DNA of 27,116 bases from Candidatus Dojkabacteria bacterium UBA5749. Its GTDB lineage: Bacteria > Patescibacteriota > Dojkabacteria > SC72. This document shows positions 22,668 to 26,478 of the stretch, in pieces. Every line of letters begins with the position of its first letter. Position 1 is the first letter of the stretch. Position numbers and translations under genes: made by a program. A model generated the notes under the pieces. It was not told where the DNA came from and searched no databases. It saw only the letters and a program-made list of their open reading frames with translations. Location: NCBI GenBank assembly GCA_002419125.1, contig DIFL01000038.1:982-28097 (forward strand), written 5' to 3'.

Positions 22668-23618
22668 CTATATTAGATTCTTTGTTCCATTGATAAATTC
22701 TGTATTGGTCATGTGTTGTTTCCCTTCTATTTGGAGTTCTAATACCTCTATACACTGATCTCTGTTTTTTGTAGAGAAGAATATCTTACCGTTTTCAATA
22801 AAAAGGGAACCTGGTTTTTCATTAGAATATTTCTTGGTAAGTTGGGCTTTATAGATTTTCATTCTTTTACTGTCTAACATACACCACGCAACTGGCCAAG
22901 GTATCATTGCTCTAATCATTCTTTCAATATACTCTGGTTCCATTTTTTCAAATTGTATTTCAGCATTTTCTTTTGATATATCTTTTTGCCAACAGTATGT
23001 AGCTTTAGAGTCATCTTGCTTTTTAGGTTGTATGTTTCCATTAACCCATTGTTCTAATATATCTCCTATGGTTTTAGAAGATATATTTACCAATCTTTCT
23101 CTTAGTGAGAGGTTTGTATCTGTAGGGGATATTGGTTCTGGTATTGTTTTTAAGATATCTCCCTGGTCTAGGCCAGGAGACATTAACATTACCGTTATTC
23201 CTGTCTCTTTTTCTCCATCAAGTATTGCTTTTTGTATTGGTACTGCTCCTCTGTATTTTGGAAGTAGGGAGAAGTGTATATTTATGGATTTGTATATTGG
23301 GTAATTGATAAAGAAGTCTGGGAGTATTTCTCCAAAGGCTTTACATACTATTAATTCTGGGTTAAATTTGTCTAAGGCTTGTTGATATTTTTCTTTCTGT
23401 TTTTCTGTATGGAAGACCTCTATCCCATTTTCTTTTGCATACTCTTTTACCTTTGAAGGTGTTAATACCTGTTTTCTTCCTACAGGTTTATCCACTGTTG
23501 TAATTACTCCAACAATATCAAATCTTTTGTCTTCAAGAAGTGTGTTAAGAGTTTTTACAGATTCCCAATCTGTTCCAAGAAACAACGTTTTTACAGGTTT
23601 TGTATTTAAATCTCTCAT
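22668..23618 (-). CDS. fmt: Methionyl-tRNA formyltransferase
   Basis: FLGT, VITTVDKPVGRKQ.LTPS.VK, NIHFSLLPKYRGAVPIQ.AI..G...TG.T.M, LDQGDI, IRAM.PWP.AW. Confidence 0.97.
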   Translation of the reverse strand: MRDLNTKPVKTLFLGTDWESVKTLNTLLEDKRFDIVGVITTVDKPVGRKQVLTPSKVKEYAKENGIEVFHTEKQKEKYQQALDKFNPELIVCKAFGEILPDFFINYPIYKSINIHFSLLPKYRGAVPIQKAILDGEKETGITVMLMSPGLDQGDILKTIPEPISPTDTNLSLRERLVNISSKTIGDILEQWVNGNIQPKKQDDSKATYCWQKDISKENAEIQFEKMEPEYIERMIRAMIPWPVAWCMLDSKRMKIYKAQLTKKYSNEKPGSLFIENGKIFFSTKNRDQCIEVLELQIEGKQHMTNTEFINGTKNLI

Positions 23619-23700: not shown

Positions 23701-24711
23701 ATGAAAATGTCAGATTTTAAATACAATTTGCCCCAAGAGTTAATTGCACAGTATCCTCCCAAAAAGAGAGGTAGTTCAAATTTGTTGATATTGGATAGAA
23801 ATACAGGAGAGATTGAGCACAGAAAATATTTTAATGTTGTGGAATATATTAAAAAGGGTGATGTTGTAGTGTTAAATGAAACTAGGGTTTTGAATTGTAG
23901 AACTTTCTTTCTTACTCCAAATGAAAAGATGGTAGAGGTTCTTTTTTTAGAAAAGAGAGAGGGAGATTCGTGGTACTGTTTAATTGGAAGAGCAAAGAAT
24001 GTTAAGATTGGAGACATCTTACAGTGTAATGAAATATCAATACTAGTAAAAGAGAGAAAGGAAAATGGTTTTGTAGTAGATTTCACAAAAGGTAGTTCTG
24101 ACGAATTGTTTGCAAAGTATGGTCATACTCCTTTGCCTCCATACATGAAGAGAGGGGATGAGGATAGTGATAGAGATAGGTATAATACTGTATTTTCCTC
24201 TATTCCTGGGGCCGTGGCAGCTCCTACAGCGAGTTTAAATCTAACTAATGAGATATTAGCGGAGATTGAGAAAAAGGGTGCGAAAGTAGTCAAGATTGAG
24301 CTTCGAGTTGGATGGGGAACTTTCGCTCCCATTAGGGAAGAAAATATTGAGGAACATGTTATTCACAAAGAGTATATTAATGTTAGTAAGGAGGTTTCTG
24401 ATTGTATCAACGATTGTAATGGAAGTGTATGGGCATTCGGTACTACTGTTGCAAGAGCACTGGAATCTGCTTACAGTCAGAAAGAGAAGAAGGTATTATC
24501 ATACTCTGGAGATACCGACCTTTACATATATCCAGGGTATCAATGGGAGGTTGTTGATGTTCTTGTCACAAACTTCCATATGCCAGACTCATCATTAATT
24601 CTTTTGGTTTCTTCTTTTGCTGGAAAGGAGTTAATTAAAAAGGCATATGCTGAAGCTTTAGAAAGAGGGTACAAATTCCTAAGCTATGGTGATAGTATGT
24701 TAATTAAGTAA
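23701..24711 (+). CDS. queA: S-adenosylmethionine:tRNA ribosyltransferase-isomerase
   Basis: SDFKYNLPQELIAQYP, G.TPLPPYM, YNTVF, AVAAPTA, GTF.P, TNFH.P.SSL, Y.FLSYGD.MLI. Confidence 0.96.
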   Translation: MKMSDFKYNLPQELIAQYPPKKRGSSNLLILDRNTGEIEHRKYFNVVEYIKKGDVVVLNETRVLNCRTFFLTPNEKMVEVLFLEKREGDSWYCLIGRAKNVKIGDILQCNEISILVKERKENGFVVDFTKGSSDELFAKYGHTPLPPYMKRGDEDSDRDRYNTVFSSIPGAVAAPTASLNLTNEILAEIEKKGAKVVKIELRVGWGTFAPIREENIEEHVIHKEYINVSKEVSDCINDCNGSVWAFGTTVARALESAYSQKEKKVLSYSGDTDLYIYPGYQWEVVDVLVTNFHMPDSSLILLVSSFAGKELIKKAYAEALERGYKFLSYGDSMLIK

Positions 24712-24717
24712 GTAAAA

Positions 24718-25743
24718 ATGATGAACTTGGACATTCTGAAAGAAAAATATTTTTTTATGCCAGATGCTACTAGAGGAGCAGTTAGATACCTTACCACTAA
24801 GCAATTAGAGGAAACTGGAACAAAAGCCATAGTGACAAACACACTCCATTTATTAATTCACCCAGGTCCAGATGTAATTCAACAGTTAGGGGGAATTAAA
24901 AAGATGATGAATTGGAATGGTATTGTATTTACAGATTCAGGTGGTTTCCAACTTTTTTCTTTGCTTCATTCTAAAAAATGGAAAGGGATAGTTCATGAGA
25001 ATGGGGCTACCTTTAAATCTCCCAAAGAGGGCAATACATATGAATTAACTCCTGAGTCGTCTATTGATATTCAGATGAACATTGGTTCTGATGTTTTAGT
25101 TTGTTTAGATGATTGTAGAGATACTGGTCTTTCAAGGAGTGATGCGCAAAAGTCAGTTGAGAGGACATTAAAATGGGCGGTTAGGTGTAAGGAGCATTTC
25201 AATAGTGAGTACGGTGGTACTGAGAAAACTGGGAGATTGTTGACTTGTGTTGTGCAGGGTTCTAACTTTTTGGATTTAAGGGCGTCCTGTGCTACGGAGT
25301 TATCTCATATTGGGTTTGATGGGTACAATTTCGGAGGGTATGTTGTTGACAAGGAGGGTGCATTGGTTGTTGATGAGATGAGTGCCGTGATTGAAAATAT
25401 TCCAAAAGATACAATTCGGTATGCGATGGGGGTCGGAAAGCCGGAGGATATTTTGAGGGCTGCAAAGATTGGTTACAATGTTTTTGATACAGTATTGGTT
25501 ACACGGAATGCAAGGCATGGAACGGTATACACATCAAAGGGGGCTGTTAGGATAAAGAACAGTGATATGGCTTTGGATCAGACTCCTGTCGATAGCAAGT
25601 GCAACTGCGAGTGTTGCAAAAACTACACAAGAGCGTACCTTCACCACATGCTCAAAAACGAAGAAGCAACCGCGCTTACCCTATTAACCATTCACAACCT
25701 AACCTTCTACCAATCCCTCATAGGGGGCCTGACCCTGCCCTGA
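24718..25743 (+). CDS. tgt: tRNA-guanine transglycosylase (bacterial type)
   Basis: FMPDATRG.V, NTLHL, TDSGGFQ, LDDC, VQG, RYAMGVGKPEDI, FDTV..TRNARHG, Zn site C.CECC...H, HNL.FY. Confidence 0.97.
   Translation: MMNLDILKEKYFFMPDATRGAVRYLTTKQLEETGTKAIVTNTLHLLIHPGPDVIQQLGGIKKMMNWNGIVFTDSGGFQLFSLLHSKKWKGIVHENGATFKSPKEGNTYELTPESSIDIQMNIGSDVLVCLDDCRDTGLSRSDAQKSVERTLKWAVRCKEHFNSEYGGTEKTGRLLTCVVQGSNFLDLRASCATELSHIGFDGYNFGGYVVDKEGALVVDEMSAVIENIPKDTIRYAMGVGKPEDILRAAKIGYNVFDTVLVTRNARHGTVYTSKGAVRIKNSDMALDQTPVDSKCNCECCKNYTRAYLHHMLKNEEATALTLLTIHNLTFYQSLIGGLTLP
25705..25740 (+). repeat. Left REP-like unit (degenerate), inside the tgt 3' end
   Basis: TTCTACCAATCCCTCATAGGGGGCCTGACCCTGCCC aligns with the reverse complement of 26227-26267; its core GGGCCTGACCC has one mismatch to GGGTCTGACCC. 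Confidence 0.6.
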
Positions 25744-25745
25744 CC

Positions 25746-26180
25746 CTATTTTTTGCTTAGCCATTTGTAATCCCCGGCCTTTCTTACCAACCCATCGCGT
25801 ACGGGGTTTTGCCTCAAATATGCACGTGTTCGTATGAGATCCTTTTTGTATGGTAGGTAGTTGGCGTTGTATCTTCCTTGGAAAGCATGTCCTACTCTCT
25901 GGTATTTTCTGTTTATCTCCATGGCAAAAGTACCTATTACCTTTTGCATATATTTAGGTAAGGCTTTTGTGTTTAAAGGAGTTTTAATTATCAAATGGAA
26001 GTGATTGTCCATTATGCAATATGTATCGACACTGATATTACATTCATTTTTATATTTGAAGAGAAGGCTTAGGAAAAGTTGCTTGTCAGCAGGGGCCTTG
26101 AGTATGGCCTCTTTGTTGTTGCCACGGTTGAATACATGGTAGAAGCTGTTGGGCTTAATATCGCGCAAGGGTCTGGACAT
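25746..26180 (-). mobile_element. REP-associated tyrosine transposase (RAYT, Y1_Tnp/IS200-like HUH nuclease), 144 aa
   Basis: Preferred ATG 26180: MSRPLR...FYHVFNRGNNK..I....D...F, YCIMDNHFHLII (HUH), GHAFQGRY, AYLRQNPVR.GLV (catalytic Tyr, YxxxNP). Confidence 0.93.
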
Positions 26181-26226
26181 AGGGAAATGATAGCAGGTCG
26201 AGATTAAATCGGGGTTAACTGGGGTT

Positions 26227-26267
26227 GGGAAAGGGTCTGACCCTTGAGGGTGGCGGGATTGGGAGAA
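26227..26267 (-). repeat. Right REP-like unit with perfect palindrome AAGGGTCTGACCCTT (26231-26245)
   Basis: 15-nt palindrome 50 nt upstream of the RAYT start, inverted relative to 25705-25740. Confidence 0.7.
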
Positions 26268-26478
26268 AAATGGTATCATTGTGAAGTCCTGTATTGTCAT
26301 AGTTATTGATTAGGACGGGGATAAGAAATGTTGAATTGTTTCGAATTAATGAAAAATTTTATGAGTTTAATTGAATTAAATATATTAATGGATAGAGTGG
26401 TTCCGGGTGGTCGGAATCTGTTGTAATTATTCAATTTTCTTTACCCCAAAAAAGTTTTAAATTTTTAACAATACTCAT

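What the first reader, a model, noticed from the sequence alone, without database searches (positions are those of the whole stretch)
25636..26320. Strand-specific C-rich halos centred on the two REP units flanking RAYT
Seen: genes in this window favour A/T (and G) at third codon positions. In contrast, 18 of the last 35 tgt sense codons (25636-25740) end in C, and the plus strand stays C-rich to about 25800. At the other end the mirror image occurs: 17 of the first 33 RAYT codons end in C, and the minus strand is C-rich from about 26320 to 26080. The middle of RAYT returns to A/T endings. In each halo the C-rich strand is the one that reads the unit as ..CCAATCCC..GACCCT. The protein motifs are preserved. 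Inference: a localized, strand-asymmetric mutational or gene-conversion process acts around REP sites, perhaps RAYT nicking followed by biased repair, and rewrites neighbouring host genes. A simple foreign insertion would not easily explain recoding of the conserved tgt tail.
Basis: partly seen in the sequence, partly recalled or inferred. Interest (0 to 1): 0.7.

Follow-up and report, generated by a model that had tools for sequence, protein, structure and literature searches.

The report
C-rich halos flanking a RAYT gene
In a tiny uncultured bacterium, the end of the tRNA-modification gene tgt and the start of a neighbouring domesticated transposase gene (RAYT) are written in C-ending codons that are otherwise rare there; relatives show this tracks the RAYT and its flanking repeats, but the cause, selection on the RNAs or a local mutation or repair bias, is still open.

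Summary
Genome-wide C3 is 9.8%. The tgt tail (18/35) and the RAYT N-terminus (17/33) are the two most C3-rich stretches in the 636-kb assembly. At 4-fold sites the C:G ratio flips from 10:23 in the tgt body to 7:1 in the tail, so this is a strand asymmetry and not just higher GC.

A single-copy Y1/HUH RAYT (25746-26180, minus) is bracketed by ~50-nt inverted REP units. It lies convergent to tgt at the same place in at least 7 genera. The tgt stop codon lies inside the left REP.

RAYT-free relatives use T-ending codons in the same conserved tail. Synonymous sites turn over as fast in the tail as in the body. The C-richness is therefore actively maintained and is not a foreign relic. Contigs from independent studies bridge the junction, so it is not a chimera.

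The halo is not general. Forty-one paralogous RAYT loci and four other REP doublets lack it. Close strains show fewer differences in the halo, not more.

My best reading (about 0.38) is selected C-rich, G-poor rut-like tracts around REP hairpins on the tgt mRNA 3' end and the RAYT mRNA 5' end.

The parts
24718..25743 (+). tgt (queuine tRNA-ribosyltransferase), 341 aa. Its stop codon TGA (25741-25743) lies inside the left REP unit, and its last 5-6 residues (GLTLP) are encoded by REP sequence.
   Evidence: Pfam PF01702 E=1.7e-106, matching profile positions 19-332 and protein residues up to 335. Orthologues of 339-345 aa occur throughout the genus. The REP motif overlaps the stop at a fixed register in most lineages.
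25600..25743 (+). Left outer halo: the C-rich, G-poor tgt tail on the sense strand.
   Evidence: 18/35 C3. 4-fold C7/G1 against C10/G23 in the body. GC skew is -0.35 to -0.45. In the meta-profile C/(C+T) is 0.4-0.87 over the last ~48 codons in RAYT+ genomes, against a 0.15 baseline.
25705..25751 (.). Left REP unit. On the + strand it carries CCAATCCC (25710-25717), the small palindrome AGGGGGCCTGACCCT (25722-25736) and the 11-nt-spaced direct repeat GACCC-N6-GACCC (25731-25746).
   Evidence: Inverted repeats I1 and I9 with the right unit. Core-to-core pairing has z=-4.5 against shuffles. The motif GWCCC-N6-GWCCC is found only in RAYT+ genomes of the genus.
25744..25830 (+). Left inner halo: a + strand C-rich stretch that is the 3' flank of tgt and is antisense to the RAYT C-terminus.
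   Evidence: C 0.33-0.36 and G 0.15-0.18 in the genus profile. RAYT last 25 codons pooled 4-fold G26/C11 on the RAYT sense strand. This is weak at synonymous sites in the window itself.
25746..26180 (-). RAYT (REP-associated tyrosine transposase-like Y1/HUH enzyme), 144 aa, single copy in the assembly.
   Evidence: Pfam PF01797 at 41 bits (cut-off 23). NCBIfam NF047646 at 70.6 bits, below its cut-off of 80 but full length. The HUH motif (NHFHL) and the Tyr in AYLRQNP are conserved in 16 aligned homologues. There is one match in G000.
26080..26216 (-). Right inner halo: the RAYT leader plus its first ~33 codons, C-rich and G-poor on the RAYT sense strand.
   Evidence: 17/33 C3 and 4-fold C8/G0. 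Pooled genus 4-fold C25/G4.
26217..26267 (.). Right REP unit, inverted relative to the left one (GGGTCTGACCC at 26233-26243, GGGATTGG at 26255-26262).
   Evidence: RAYT-free relatives join the tgt stop to the sequence that follows 26267 (AAAAATGGTATCATT...), which marks the cassette boundary.
26268..26320 (-). Right outer flank: still G>C on the + strand but AT-rich. It carries the RNase Y extended -10 (TGGTATCAT, 26271-26279) and probably the RAYT promoter on the other strand.
   Evidence: Skew +0.54 to +0.83 with GC 0.24-0.48. The sequence is shared with RAYT-free relatives.

Best explanation
The halos belong to an old tgt-RAYT-REP cassette that mostly stays at the same locus. They are kept by continuing selection on base composition, not on exact sequence.

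Each REP hairpin sits in the middle of a ~200-nt C-rich, G-poor, pyrimidine-rich tract on the RNA that runs into the cassette. On the left this is the tgt mRNA: its last ~50 codons, the stop codon inside the hairpin, then ~85 nt. On the right it is the RAYT mRNA: its leader, the hairpin, then the first ~33 codons.

I read these as REP-hairpin-plus-rut modules, that is Rho-dependent terminator or attenuator units. The left one would stop tgt transcription before it runs antisense through RAYT and leave a hairpin-protected 3' end. The right one would keep RAYT expression low.

Shown here: the composition, its polarity, its link to RAYT/REP presence, its persistence despite saturated synonymous turnover, and the presence of rho.

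Inferred only: that Rho, or any RNA-level reader, is the selective agent. A DNA-level reader of the C-rich strand would fit the same data.
For: 1. Composition is conserved and sequence is not. Third-position differences at same-amino-acid codons are 0.31-0.64 in the tail and 0.37-0.48 in the body for RAYT+ pairs.
2. C is gained from T, A and G, and G is the most depleted. At 4-fold sites, body A33/C6/G19/T42% becomes tail A26/C40/G9/T26%. R-ending G falls from 48% to 11%. The C-rich strand is ~66-71% pyrimidine in all three segments. This is the rut signature described in PMC6061677.
3. All three C-rich segments lie on real sense transcripts heading into a REP hairpin.
4. There is precedent. 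In E. coli many Rho-dependent ends lie near REPs, with raised C/G ratios just downstream of the hairpin (PMC6061677). A 2026 preprint reports a REP acting as a partly Rho-dependent terminator and mRNA stabiliser.
5. rho is present in G000: PF07497 at 85.8 bits in a 427-aa open frame.
6. Close relatives differ less in the halo than next to it. L022/L023 show 4 differences per 100 nt in the tail against 8-19 in the body. Independent-study contigs show 2 differences in 371 nt of halo and RAYT against 8 in ~130 nt upstream.
7. The feature depends on context. It is absent at 41 paralogous RAYT loci and at 4 REP doublets. That fits a regulatory feature better than an automatic by-product of REP/RAYT chemistry.
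Against: No transcript ends or Rho dependence were measured.

Much of the left tract is translated, which should hinder Rho loading.

In G000, 94 other gene ends in tight convergent pairs show no C-rich tails (mean 3.35 of 35). Tight convergence alone therefore does not select for this.

The G-rich RNA downstream of the RAYT stop is not rut-like, so RAYT's own termination is unexplained.

The ~2-fold GC3 rise in the first 45 codons of the FAD-oxidoreductase gene beside the RAYT-less REP doublet lies antisense to that gene and is not predicted.

The kb-scale + strand G3 bump around the cassette in RAYT+ genomes is not explained either.

Low divergence in the halo could also come from recent recombinational exchange of the cassette.
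Confidence: 0.38

Rival explanations
1. One reading: RAYT, acting preferentially in cis, nicks one strand of its own flanking REP units. The nick is widened to a gap, and biased gap filling, or damage to the exposed strand, drives the complementary strand towards C. Because the units are inverted, the two halos are mirror images, and neighbouring host codons are rewritten at synonymous sites.
For: One rule covers all three segments: the strand reading GWCCC-N6-GWCCC is C-rich on both sides of each unit.

C/(C+T) decays with distance from the REP, from 0.87 to 0.15 over ~60 codons.

The effect is strongest at the RAYT-flanking units and weak or absent at remote doublets, which is what a cis-acting enzyme would give.

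REP motifs occur only in RAYT+ genomes.

Tail C3 correlates across lineages with RAYT N-terminal C3 and with G3 of the tgt body, as a lineage-specific activity level would predict.

GC3 also rises in the antisense-oriented FAD gene beside the RAYT-less doublet.

The RAYT catalytic motifs are intact.
Against: No halo appears at 41 paralogous RAYT loci, some in genomes that also carry the tgt-linked copy.

The model needs a local rate towards C well above the AT-biased background. Yet halo divergence and strain differences are equal to or lower than in the neighbouring sequence.

It needs transversions to C as well as transitions.

There is no asymmetry at the second REP site in this genome.

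RAYT nicking in vivo is not shown for any member here.
Confidence: 0.27
2. Hitch-hiking with a recombining cassette: the RAYT cassette is exchanged between related lineages by homologous recombination, and the C-rich tgt tail travels with it as linked flanking DNA of a RAYT+ haplotype. The T-ending tail belongs to the RAYT-free haplotype.
For: There is mosaicism. L027/L028 are identical from -200 to +800 around the cassette but 7-10% diverged further upstream. L037/L038 have a cassette at 1-5% divergence beside a tgt at 10-16%.

The RAYT-free genome L004 is nested inside a RAYT+ clade, yet its tgt C-terminus is like those of other RAYT-free genomes.

A short patch of 6 synonymous differences spaced by 3 nt lies at 25527-25544 in contigs from three studies.
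Against: This explains linkage, not why the haplotype is C-rich on one strand or stays so. All hosts are AT-rich, and synonymous sites in the tail are near saturation between RAYT+ lineages. In L037/L038 the exchanged segment stops at the tgt stop.
Confidence: 0.12
3. Relic of foreign, higher-GC DNA, an assembly chimera, or codon-level translational selection (optimal NNC codons, or a queuosine-related preference for NAC in the tgt gene itself).
For: The cassette is GC-richer (0.45-0.54) than the genome (0.326). Seven NAY codons in the tail are all NAC. K, E and Q codons keep A endings, as in many moderate-GC genomes.
Against: The same arrangement and halo appear in about ten independent assemblies and in contigs from independent studies.

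Tail synonymous sites are saturated.

The tail is true tgt by profile.

Ribosomal-protein genes in the window have the lowest C3, 0.04-0.08.

The bias follows RAYT presence, not tgt.

In relatives the RAYT C-terminus carries the excess as G3 on its own sense strand, so the pattern is DNA- or transcript-polar and not codon-optimal.
Confidence: 0.05

Closest known systems
REPIN-RAYT systems (Nunvar 2010 PMC2817692; Bertels & Rainey 2011 PMC3116915; Bertels 2017 PMC5581495; bioRxiv 10.1101/2021.07.10.451892)
   Same: A single-copy Y1/HUH transposase homologue flanked by inverted REP units. It occupies the same extragenic slot across related genomes. REP copies are present only where the RAYT is. 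RAYT-less REP doublets of ~150-200 nt occur elsewhere in the genome.
   Different: REP copy number is tiny (1-4 sites per genome instead of tens to hundreds). There is no GTAG or CGTC tag next to the palindrome. The left REP overlaps a host coding sequence and supplies its stop codon. The papers read here do not mention compositional halos in neighbouring genes.
REP-associated Rho-dependent terminators of E. coli (Dar & Sorek 2018 PMC6061677, citing Peters 2012 and Espeli 2001; bioRxiv 10.64898/2026.03.23.713779)
   Same: A stable hairpin without an obligatory U-tract sits next to a C-rich, G-poor tract on the transcript. The REP acts as terminator and 3'-end protector between genes, including convergent pairs.
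   Different: Here the C-rich tract extends ~150 nt back into a conserved coding region by synonymous recoding. A mirror-image copy sits in the leader and N-terminus of the RAYT gene. No transcript data exist for this organism.
Replication- or transcription-associated strand asymmetry (bacterial GC skew; vertebrate mitochondrial H-strand deamination gradients). Recalled from general knowledge, not tested here.
   Same: Orientation-independent skew at synonymous sites. An A+C-rich strand opposes a G+T-rich strand, and the effect declines with distance.
   Different: The scale is ~200 nt, not a replichore. The polarity is set by the orientation of a 50-nt repeat. GC content rises, whereas deamination lowers it.
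GC-biased gene conversion at recombination hot spots
   Same: A local rise in GC3 that behaves like selection and needs no high mutation rate.
   Different: gBGC is strand-symmetric. Here G is depleted where C is enriched.

Membership tests
RAYT (REP-associated tyrosine transposase, Y1/HUH) | Y1_Tnp fold with the HUH motif and a catalytic tyrosine | tested here: met
   PF01797 at 41 bits against a cut-off of 23. NHFHL and the Y of AYLRQNP are conserved in 16 homologues.
RAYT (REP-associated tyrosine transposase, Y1/HUH) | Score above the curated NCBIfam equivalog cut-off (NF047646) | tested here: not met
   70.6 bits against a cut-off of 80, although the match covers profile positions 6-145 of 146. 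It is a divergent relative.
REPIN-RAYT system | RAYT is single copy and flanked by REP sequences in inverted orientation | tested here: met
   One match in G000. Inverted ~50-nt units lie at 25705-25751 and 26217-26267, pairing with z=-4.5.
REPIN-RAYT system | A population of REP/REPIN copies elsewhere in the genome that co-occurs with the RAYT | tested here: met
   GWCCC-N6-GWCCC occurs in 10 of 15 genomes of the genus. Nine of these matched the RAYT query, and the tenth (G011, 81% complete) did not. The motif has no hits in the five other genomes without a RAYT match. Copy number is only 1-4 sites, far below typical REPIN populations.
REPIN-RAYT system | Vertical inheritance in a conserved extragenic slot | tested here: inconclusive
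   The RAYT lies convergent to tgt in 26 of the 30 best loci across at least 7 genera, and its identity falls in step with Tgt identity. However, cassette-sized mosaic segments show exchange between lineages.
GTAG/CGTC-tagged REP super-families (PMC3733652) | A GTAG or CGTC tetranucleotide at one end of the palindrome | tested here: not met
   Direct reading of 25705-25751 and 26217-26267 on both strands finds neither tag beside the palindrome.
Rho-dependent terminator with a protective hairpin | rho gene present, with a tract of at least ~80 nt that is C-rich and G-poor on the transcript next to a stable hairpin | tested here: met
   rho found in G000. C is 0.33-0.38 and G 0.10-0.18 over 25600-25830 (+) and 26080-26320 (-). 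The REP hairpin appears in the folds.
Rho-dependent terminator with a protective hairpin | Transcript 3' ends at the site that depend on Rho | not testable with these tools
Autonomous IS200/IS605 insertion sequence | Multiple identical copies, distinct LE and RE hairpins on one strand, often tnpB | tested here: not met
   There is a single copy. The ends are inverted copies of one unit. No second ORF lies inside the cassette.

The most novel reading that the evidence does not exclude
A domesticated RAYT nicks its own flanking REP units often enough that strand-polarised gap repair, or exposure of one strand, acts as a natural, site-anchored local mutator or conversion engine. This would rewrite synonymous sites, and some amino acids, of an essential host gene over ~150-250 nt. 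It might also underlie the kb-scale G3 bump around the cassette.
Probability: 0.25. Interest if true: 0.8.

Novelty: new variant of a known kind. Interest (0 to 1): 0.55.

Why it matters
What RAYTs and REPs do for their hosts is a long-standing open question. This case offers a clean natural experiment. One single-copy RAYT sits in a fixed slot across a family of 0.6-0.9-Mb genomes, with repeated losses, and it leaves a measurable, orientation-dependent compositional footprint on a conserved neighbouring gene.

If the footprint is selected, it shows REP hairpins being built into Rho-type terminator or attenuator modules. These would reach into coding sequence in a candidate-phyla-radiation lineage where transcription signals are barely known.

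If the footprint is mutational, it would be the first in-genome trace of RAYT activity on DNA.

In both cases it is a caution for codon-usage-based detection of horizontal transfer. Here a locally aberrant codon usage is neither foreign nor recent.

Tried and rejected
1. Long-range pairing of the two halos. Only the REP cores pair specifically (z=-4.5). The flanks pair worse than shuffles (z +1.0 to +1.6).
2. Unusual single-strand structure or lack of it. DNA folds of the C-rich and G-rich strands give z between -0.3 and +1.2.
3. Other C-rich islands in the genome. They are glycine-rich coding on the opposite strand and are unrelated.
4. An antisense ORF in the tgt tail. The codon-aligned antisense frame has a stop after 14 codons (read).
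5. A G-quadruplex as the selected feature. The motif at 26211-26235 is one of only two in the assembly but is not conserved in any relative.
6. C-rich tails as a general solution for tight convergent genes. This is not seen at 94 such gene ends.
7. Bipolar skew inside the spacer of the RAYT-less doublet on contig C9. I suspected it by eye, but counting did not confirm it.
8. REP-centred versus stop-centred alignment of the halo. The REP overlaps the tgt stop at nearly the same register in most lineages, so the two cannot be separated.
9. L047/L049/L050 as a close trio for a substitution spectrum. L049 is too diverged at the DNA level.
10. SNP enrichment near the REPs. The contigs laid show fewer differences there, but contigs drop rare variants, so this is weak.
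11. Intrinsic terminators. The scan finds none at the tgt/RAYT junction. The T-run after the left REP in the window is not conserved.
12. RNA-labelled runs.
Full report
**What is there.** The window is G000:C41:982-28097, from a 636-kb, 58-contig assembly with 32.6% GC. An earlier scan note calls the lineage Dojkabacteria; I did not check that name. A long + strand block of ribosomal-protein and other genes ends with queA (23701-24711) and tgt (24718-25743). It is followed by a minus-strand Y1/HUH gene and then RNase Y (26479 onward). The minus-strand gene is RAYT-like: PF01797 scores 41 bits, and NF047646 scores 70.6 bits over its full length, below the cut-off of 80. Its HUH motif and catalytic Tyr are conserved. 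Its real start is the ATG at 26180. The tgt and RAYT stop codons are 2 nt apart. The gene is bracketed by ~50-nt inverted units at 25705-25751 and 26217-26267, and these pair with each other far better than shuffles do (z=-4.5). The tgt stop codon is the TGA inside the left unit.

Genome-wide C3 is 0.098, and 35-codon windows average 3.4 C-ending codons (sd 2.1). RAYT (19) and the tgt tail (18) are the two top ORFs in the whole assembly, and the next reaches 14. The binomial P is about 1e-9. The + strand GC skew is negative only at 25600-25850. This is not simply higher GC:

| Segment | 4-fold C/G | R-ending G/A | Y-ending C/T |
|---|---|---|---|
| tgt tail, REP-encoded last six codons excluded | 7/1 | 0/6 | 8/1 |
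| tgt body | 10/23 | 41/37 | 16/67 |

The RAYT N-terminus has 4-fold C8/G0. Positions 26181-26320 are leader, not codons. The middle of RAYT still has C3 of 0.28. In the window itself, the + strand C-richness of 25746-25800 sits mainly in codon positions 1-2.

**Comparative evidence.**
- Forty of 41 related genomes have tgt, and in this genus it is natively 339-345 aa.
- The RAYT lies convergent to tgt, at the same place, in 26 of the 30 best RAYT loci from at least 7 genera.
- Seven relatives lack the RAYT. There the tgt stop is followed directly by the sequence that lies right of 26267 in the window.
- The same conserved tail peptide (YLHHMLKN.EATALTLLTIHNLT.YQ) is written with 11-19 C-ending codons of 35 in most RAYT+ genomes of the genus and in G015. 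RAYT-free genomes use 0-9, with up to 21 T-ending.
- The meta-profile gives C/(C+T) of 0.87, 0.83, 0.62, 0.50, 0.55, 0.40, 0.79 and 0.39 in 6-codon bins back from the stop. It then falls to a baseline near 0.15. G/(G+A) does not rise.
- Pooled over six genus members, 4-fold C:G is 40:122 in the tgt body and 28:6 in codons -30..-6 (Fisher P=4e-10). It is 11:26 in the last 25 RAYT codons (RAYT sense strand) and 25:4 in the first 25.

The strand that reads each REP unit as GWCCC-N6-GWCCC is therefore C-rich, G-poor and about 66-71% pyrimidine on both sides of each unit.

The link with RAYT presence survives crude phylogenetic control. The tgt-body tree places the RAYT-free genomes in at least five separate positions. 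Six sister contrasts give a one-sided Wilcoxon P of 0.047. Lineages in the genus polytomy give a Mann-Whitney P of 0.007. One contrast, L043 against L018, goes the other way.

**What it is not.**
- It is not a chimera. Contigs from three other studies bridge the tgt tail, left REP and RAYT (25479-25979, 25663-26046 and 25400-25815).
- It is not a relic of foreign DNA. Third-position differences at same-amino-acid codons are near saturation and are alike in tail (0.31-0.64) and body (0.37-0.48). The tail is C-rich in lineages as far apart as 71% Tgt identity.
- It is not sequence-specific conservation, for the same reason.
- It is not extended base pairing.
- It is not translational optimisation. 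Ribosomal-protein genes have the lowest C3. In relatives the RAYT C-terminus carries the excess as G3 on its own sense strand.

**Limits on generality.**
- Forty-one paralogous RAYT loci of the same family show ordinary composition apart from a GC-rich REP blip upstream of the start.
- The REP motif occurs only in RAYT+ genomes of the genus, at 1-4 sites each.
- Of the RAYT-less REP doublets I fetched, four have no flanking enrichment.
- The one other REP site in G000 is at C9:250-420, between a FAD-dependent oxidoreductase gene and ndk. Compared with relatives that lack the element, it shows a roughly 2-fold GC3 rise in the first 45 oxidoreductase codons. There is no change in the G:C ratio there, and nothing on the ndk side.
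- Among tgt-linked loci the strength varies from 4 to 19 of 35. It co-varies with RAYT N-terminal C3 and with G3 of the tgt body.

**Mechanism.** Two readings fit the polarity.

*Reading A: selection on composition.* The three C-rich segments lie on the two transcripts that run into a REP hairpin, namely the tgt mRNA 3' end and the RAYT mRNA 5' end. C-rich, G-poor, unstructured RNA beside a hairpin without a U-tract is the described architecture of Rho-dependent ends. In E. coli these are often REP-associated, with raised C/G just past the REP (PMC6061677). rho is present in G000. Reading A also fits three other points:
- C is gained by transversion as well as transition, and G is the most depleted base.
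- The feature depends on context.
- Close relatives differ less in the halo than beside it. L022/L023 show 4 per 100 nt against 8-19. The strain contigs show 2 differences in 371 nt against 8 in ~130 nt.

A mutation-driven equilibrium of 40% C at 4-fold sites, in a genome whose baseline is 6%, would need a local rate above background. That should show up as more differences in the halo, not fewer.

*Points against each.* Against A: 94 other tight convergent gene ends in G000 have ordinary tails, much of the left tract is translated, and no transcript data exist. Against B: the paralogues, the divergence data and the transversions.

Recombinational exchange of the cassette is real. L027/L028 are identical from -200 to +800, and L037/L038 have a cassette far more similar than their tgt genes. 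It explains linkage but not the composition.

I put A at about 0.38, B at about 0.27, hitch-hiking at about 0.12 and the mundane readings at about 0.05. The rest is for something not considered, such as a DNA-level reader of the C-rich strand or R-loop feedback.

**Relation to the known.** The cassette works like, and mostly qualifies as, a REPIN-RAYT system: single copy, inverted REPs, REPs only where the RAYT is, and a conserved slot. It differs in several ways. It falls below the NCBIfam cut-off. It has no GTAG or CGTC tag. REP copy number is tiny. One REP is fused to a host stop codon. The compositional halo on a neighbouring conserved gene is not mentioned in the RAYT/REPIN papers I searched and read. 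I therefore rate it a new variant of a known kind, of moderate interest.

Noticed in passing
window 25716-25742: A contig from another sample of the hydrocarbon study carries a 26-nt tandem duplication of the left REP core, inserted after 25716. This would change the Tgt C-terminus to ...LTLPCS. REP units can therefore expand inside the coding tail.
   Followed up: partly
window 25731-25746; loci L021-L050: In most tgt-linked loci of several genera the tgt stop codon is part of the REP motif (TGA of CTGACCC or TAG of CCTAGG) at a fixed register. The last 5-6 Tgt residues (GLTLP, GLS, ...) are REP-encoded. RAYT-free relatives end in K(K)LN-type tails instead.
   Followed up: yes
G000 contig C9:250-420 (L092): A RAYT-less REP doublet with a ~130-nt spacer of 57-60% GC lies between a FAD-dependent oxidoreductase gene and ndk, close to the contig end. 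It is present in 5-6 genus members and absent in four, and apart from G007 (RAYT+ but lacking the doublet) and the unresolved G011 this matches RAYT presence in the genome.
   Followed up: yes
G015:C1:187001-227000 (L117, L118); G000 C41; G005; G010: There is a kb-scale rise of + strand third-position G over queA, tgt, RAYT and RNase Y in RAYT+ genomes. In G015, tgt is 0.43 and RNase Y 0.45, then 0.16. In G000 the values are 0.25 and 0.21, then 0.11. The RAYT-free genome G010 has 0.17 and 0.16. In G015, G/(G+A) reaches 0.90 in the first 260 tgt codons, with C/(C+T) at 0.05.
   Followed up: partly
window 22668-23618 (-): This minus-strand gene has A3 0.51, T3 0.24 and C/(C+T) 0.36. Its G015 orthologue has C/(C+T) 0.62. 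The + strand is therefore G+T-rich at synonymous sites whatever the gene orientation in this block, a regional strand asymmetry that ends about 2 kb past RNase Y in G015.
   Followed up: partly
L027/L028 and L037/L038/L034: Mosaic divergence. The cassette and its downstream flank are identical or nearly identical between genomes whose tgt bodies differ by 7-16%, with breakpoints at or near the tgt tail. The RAYT cassette is therefore sometimes exchanged between lineages.
   Followed up: partly
window 25527-25544: Six differences spaced exactly 3 nt apart (synonymous positions), plus 25590 and 25608, are shared by contigs from three studies. This looks like a short gene-conversion patch in tgt just left of the halo.
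   Followed up: no
window 26211-26235 (+): One of only two canonical G-quadruplex motifs (four G3+ runs, loops of 7 nt or less) in the whole 636-kb assembly overlaps the right REP. It is not conserved in any relative.
   Followed up: yes
window 26271-26316: An extended -10 (TGGTATCAT) and a GTCCT...AGGAC hairpin upstream of RNase Y are conserved in RAYT-free relatives too. They belong to the host intergenic region, not to the cassette.
   Followed up: no
loci L025-L040, between the right REP and the RAYT start: Relatives carry two direct copies of a GATGAA(A/C)T-like motif between the right REP and the RAYT start codon. The window has a degenerate version (GATTAAAT ... GTTAACT). It may be a leader or recognition element.
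   Followed up: no
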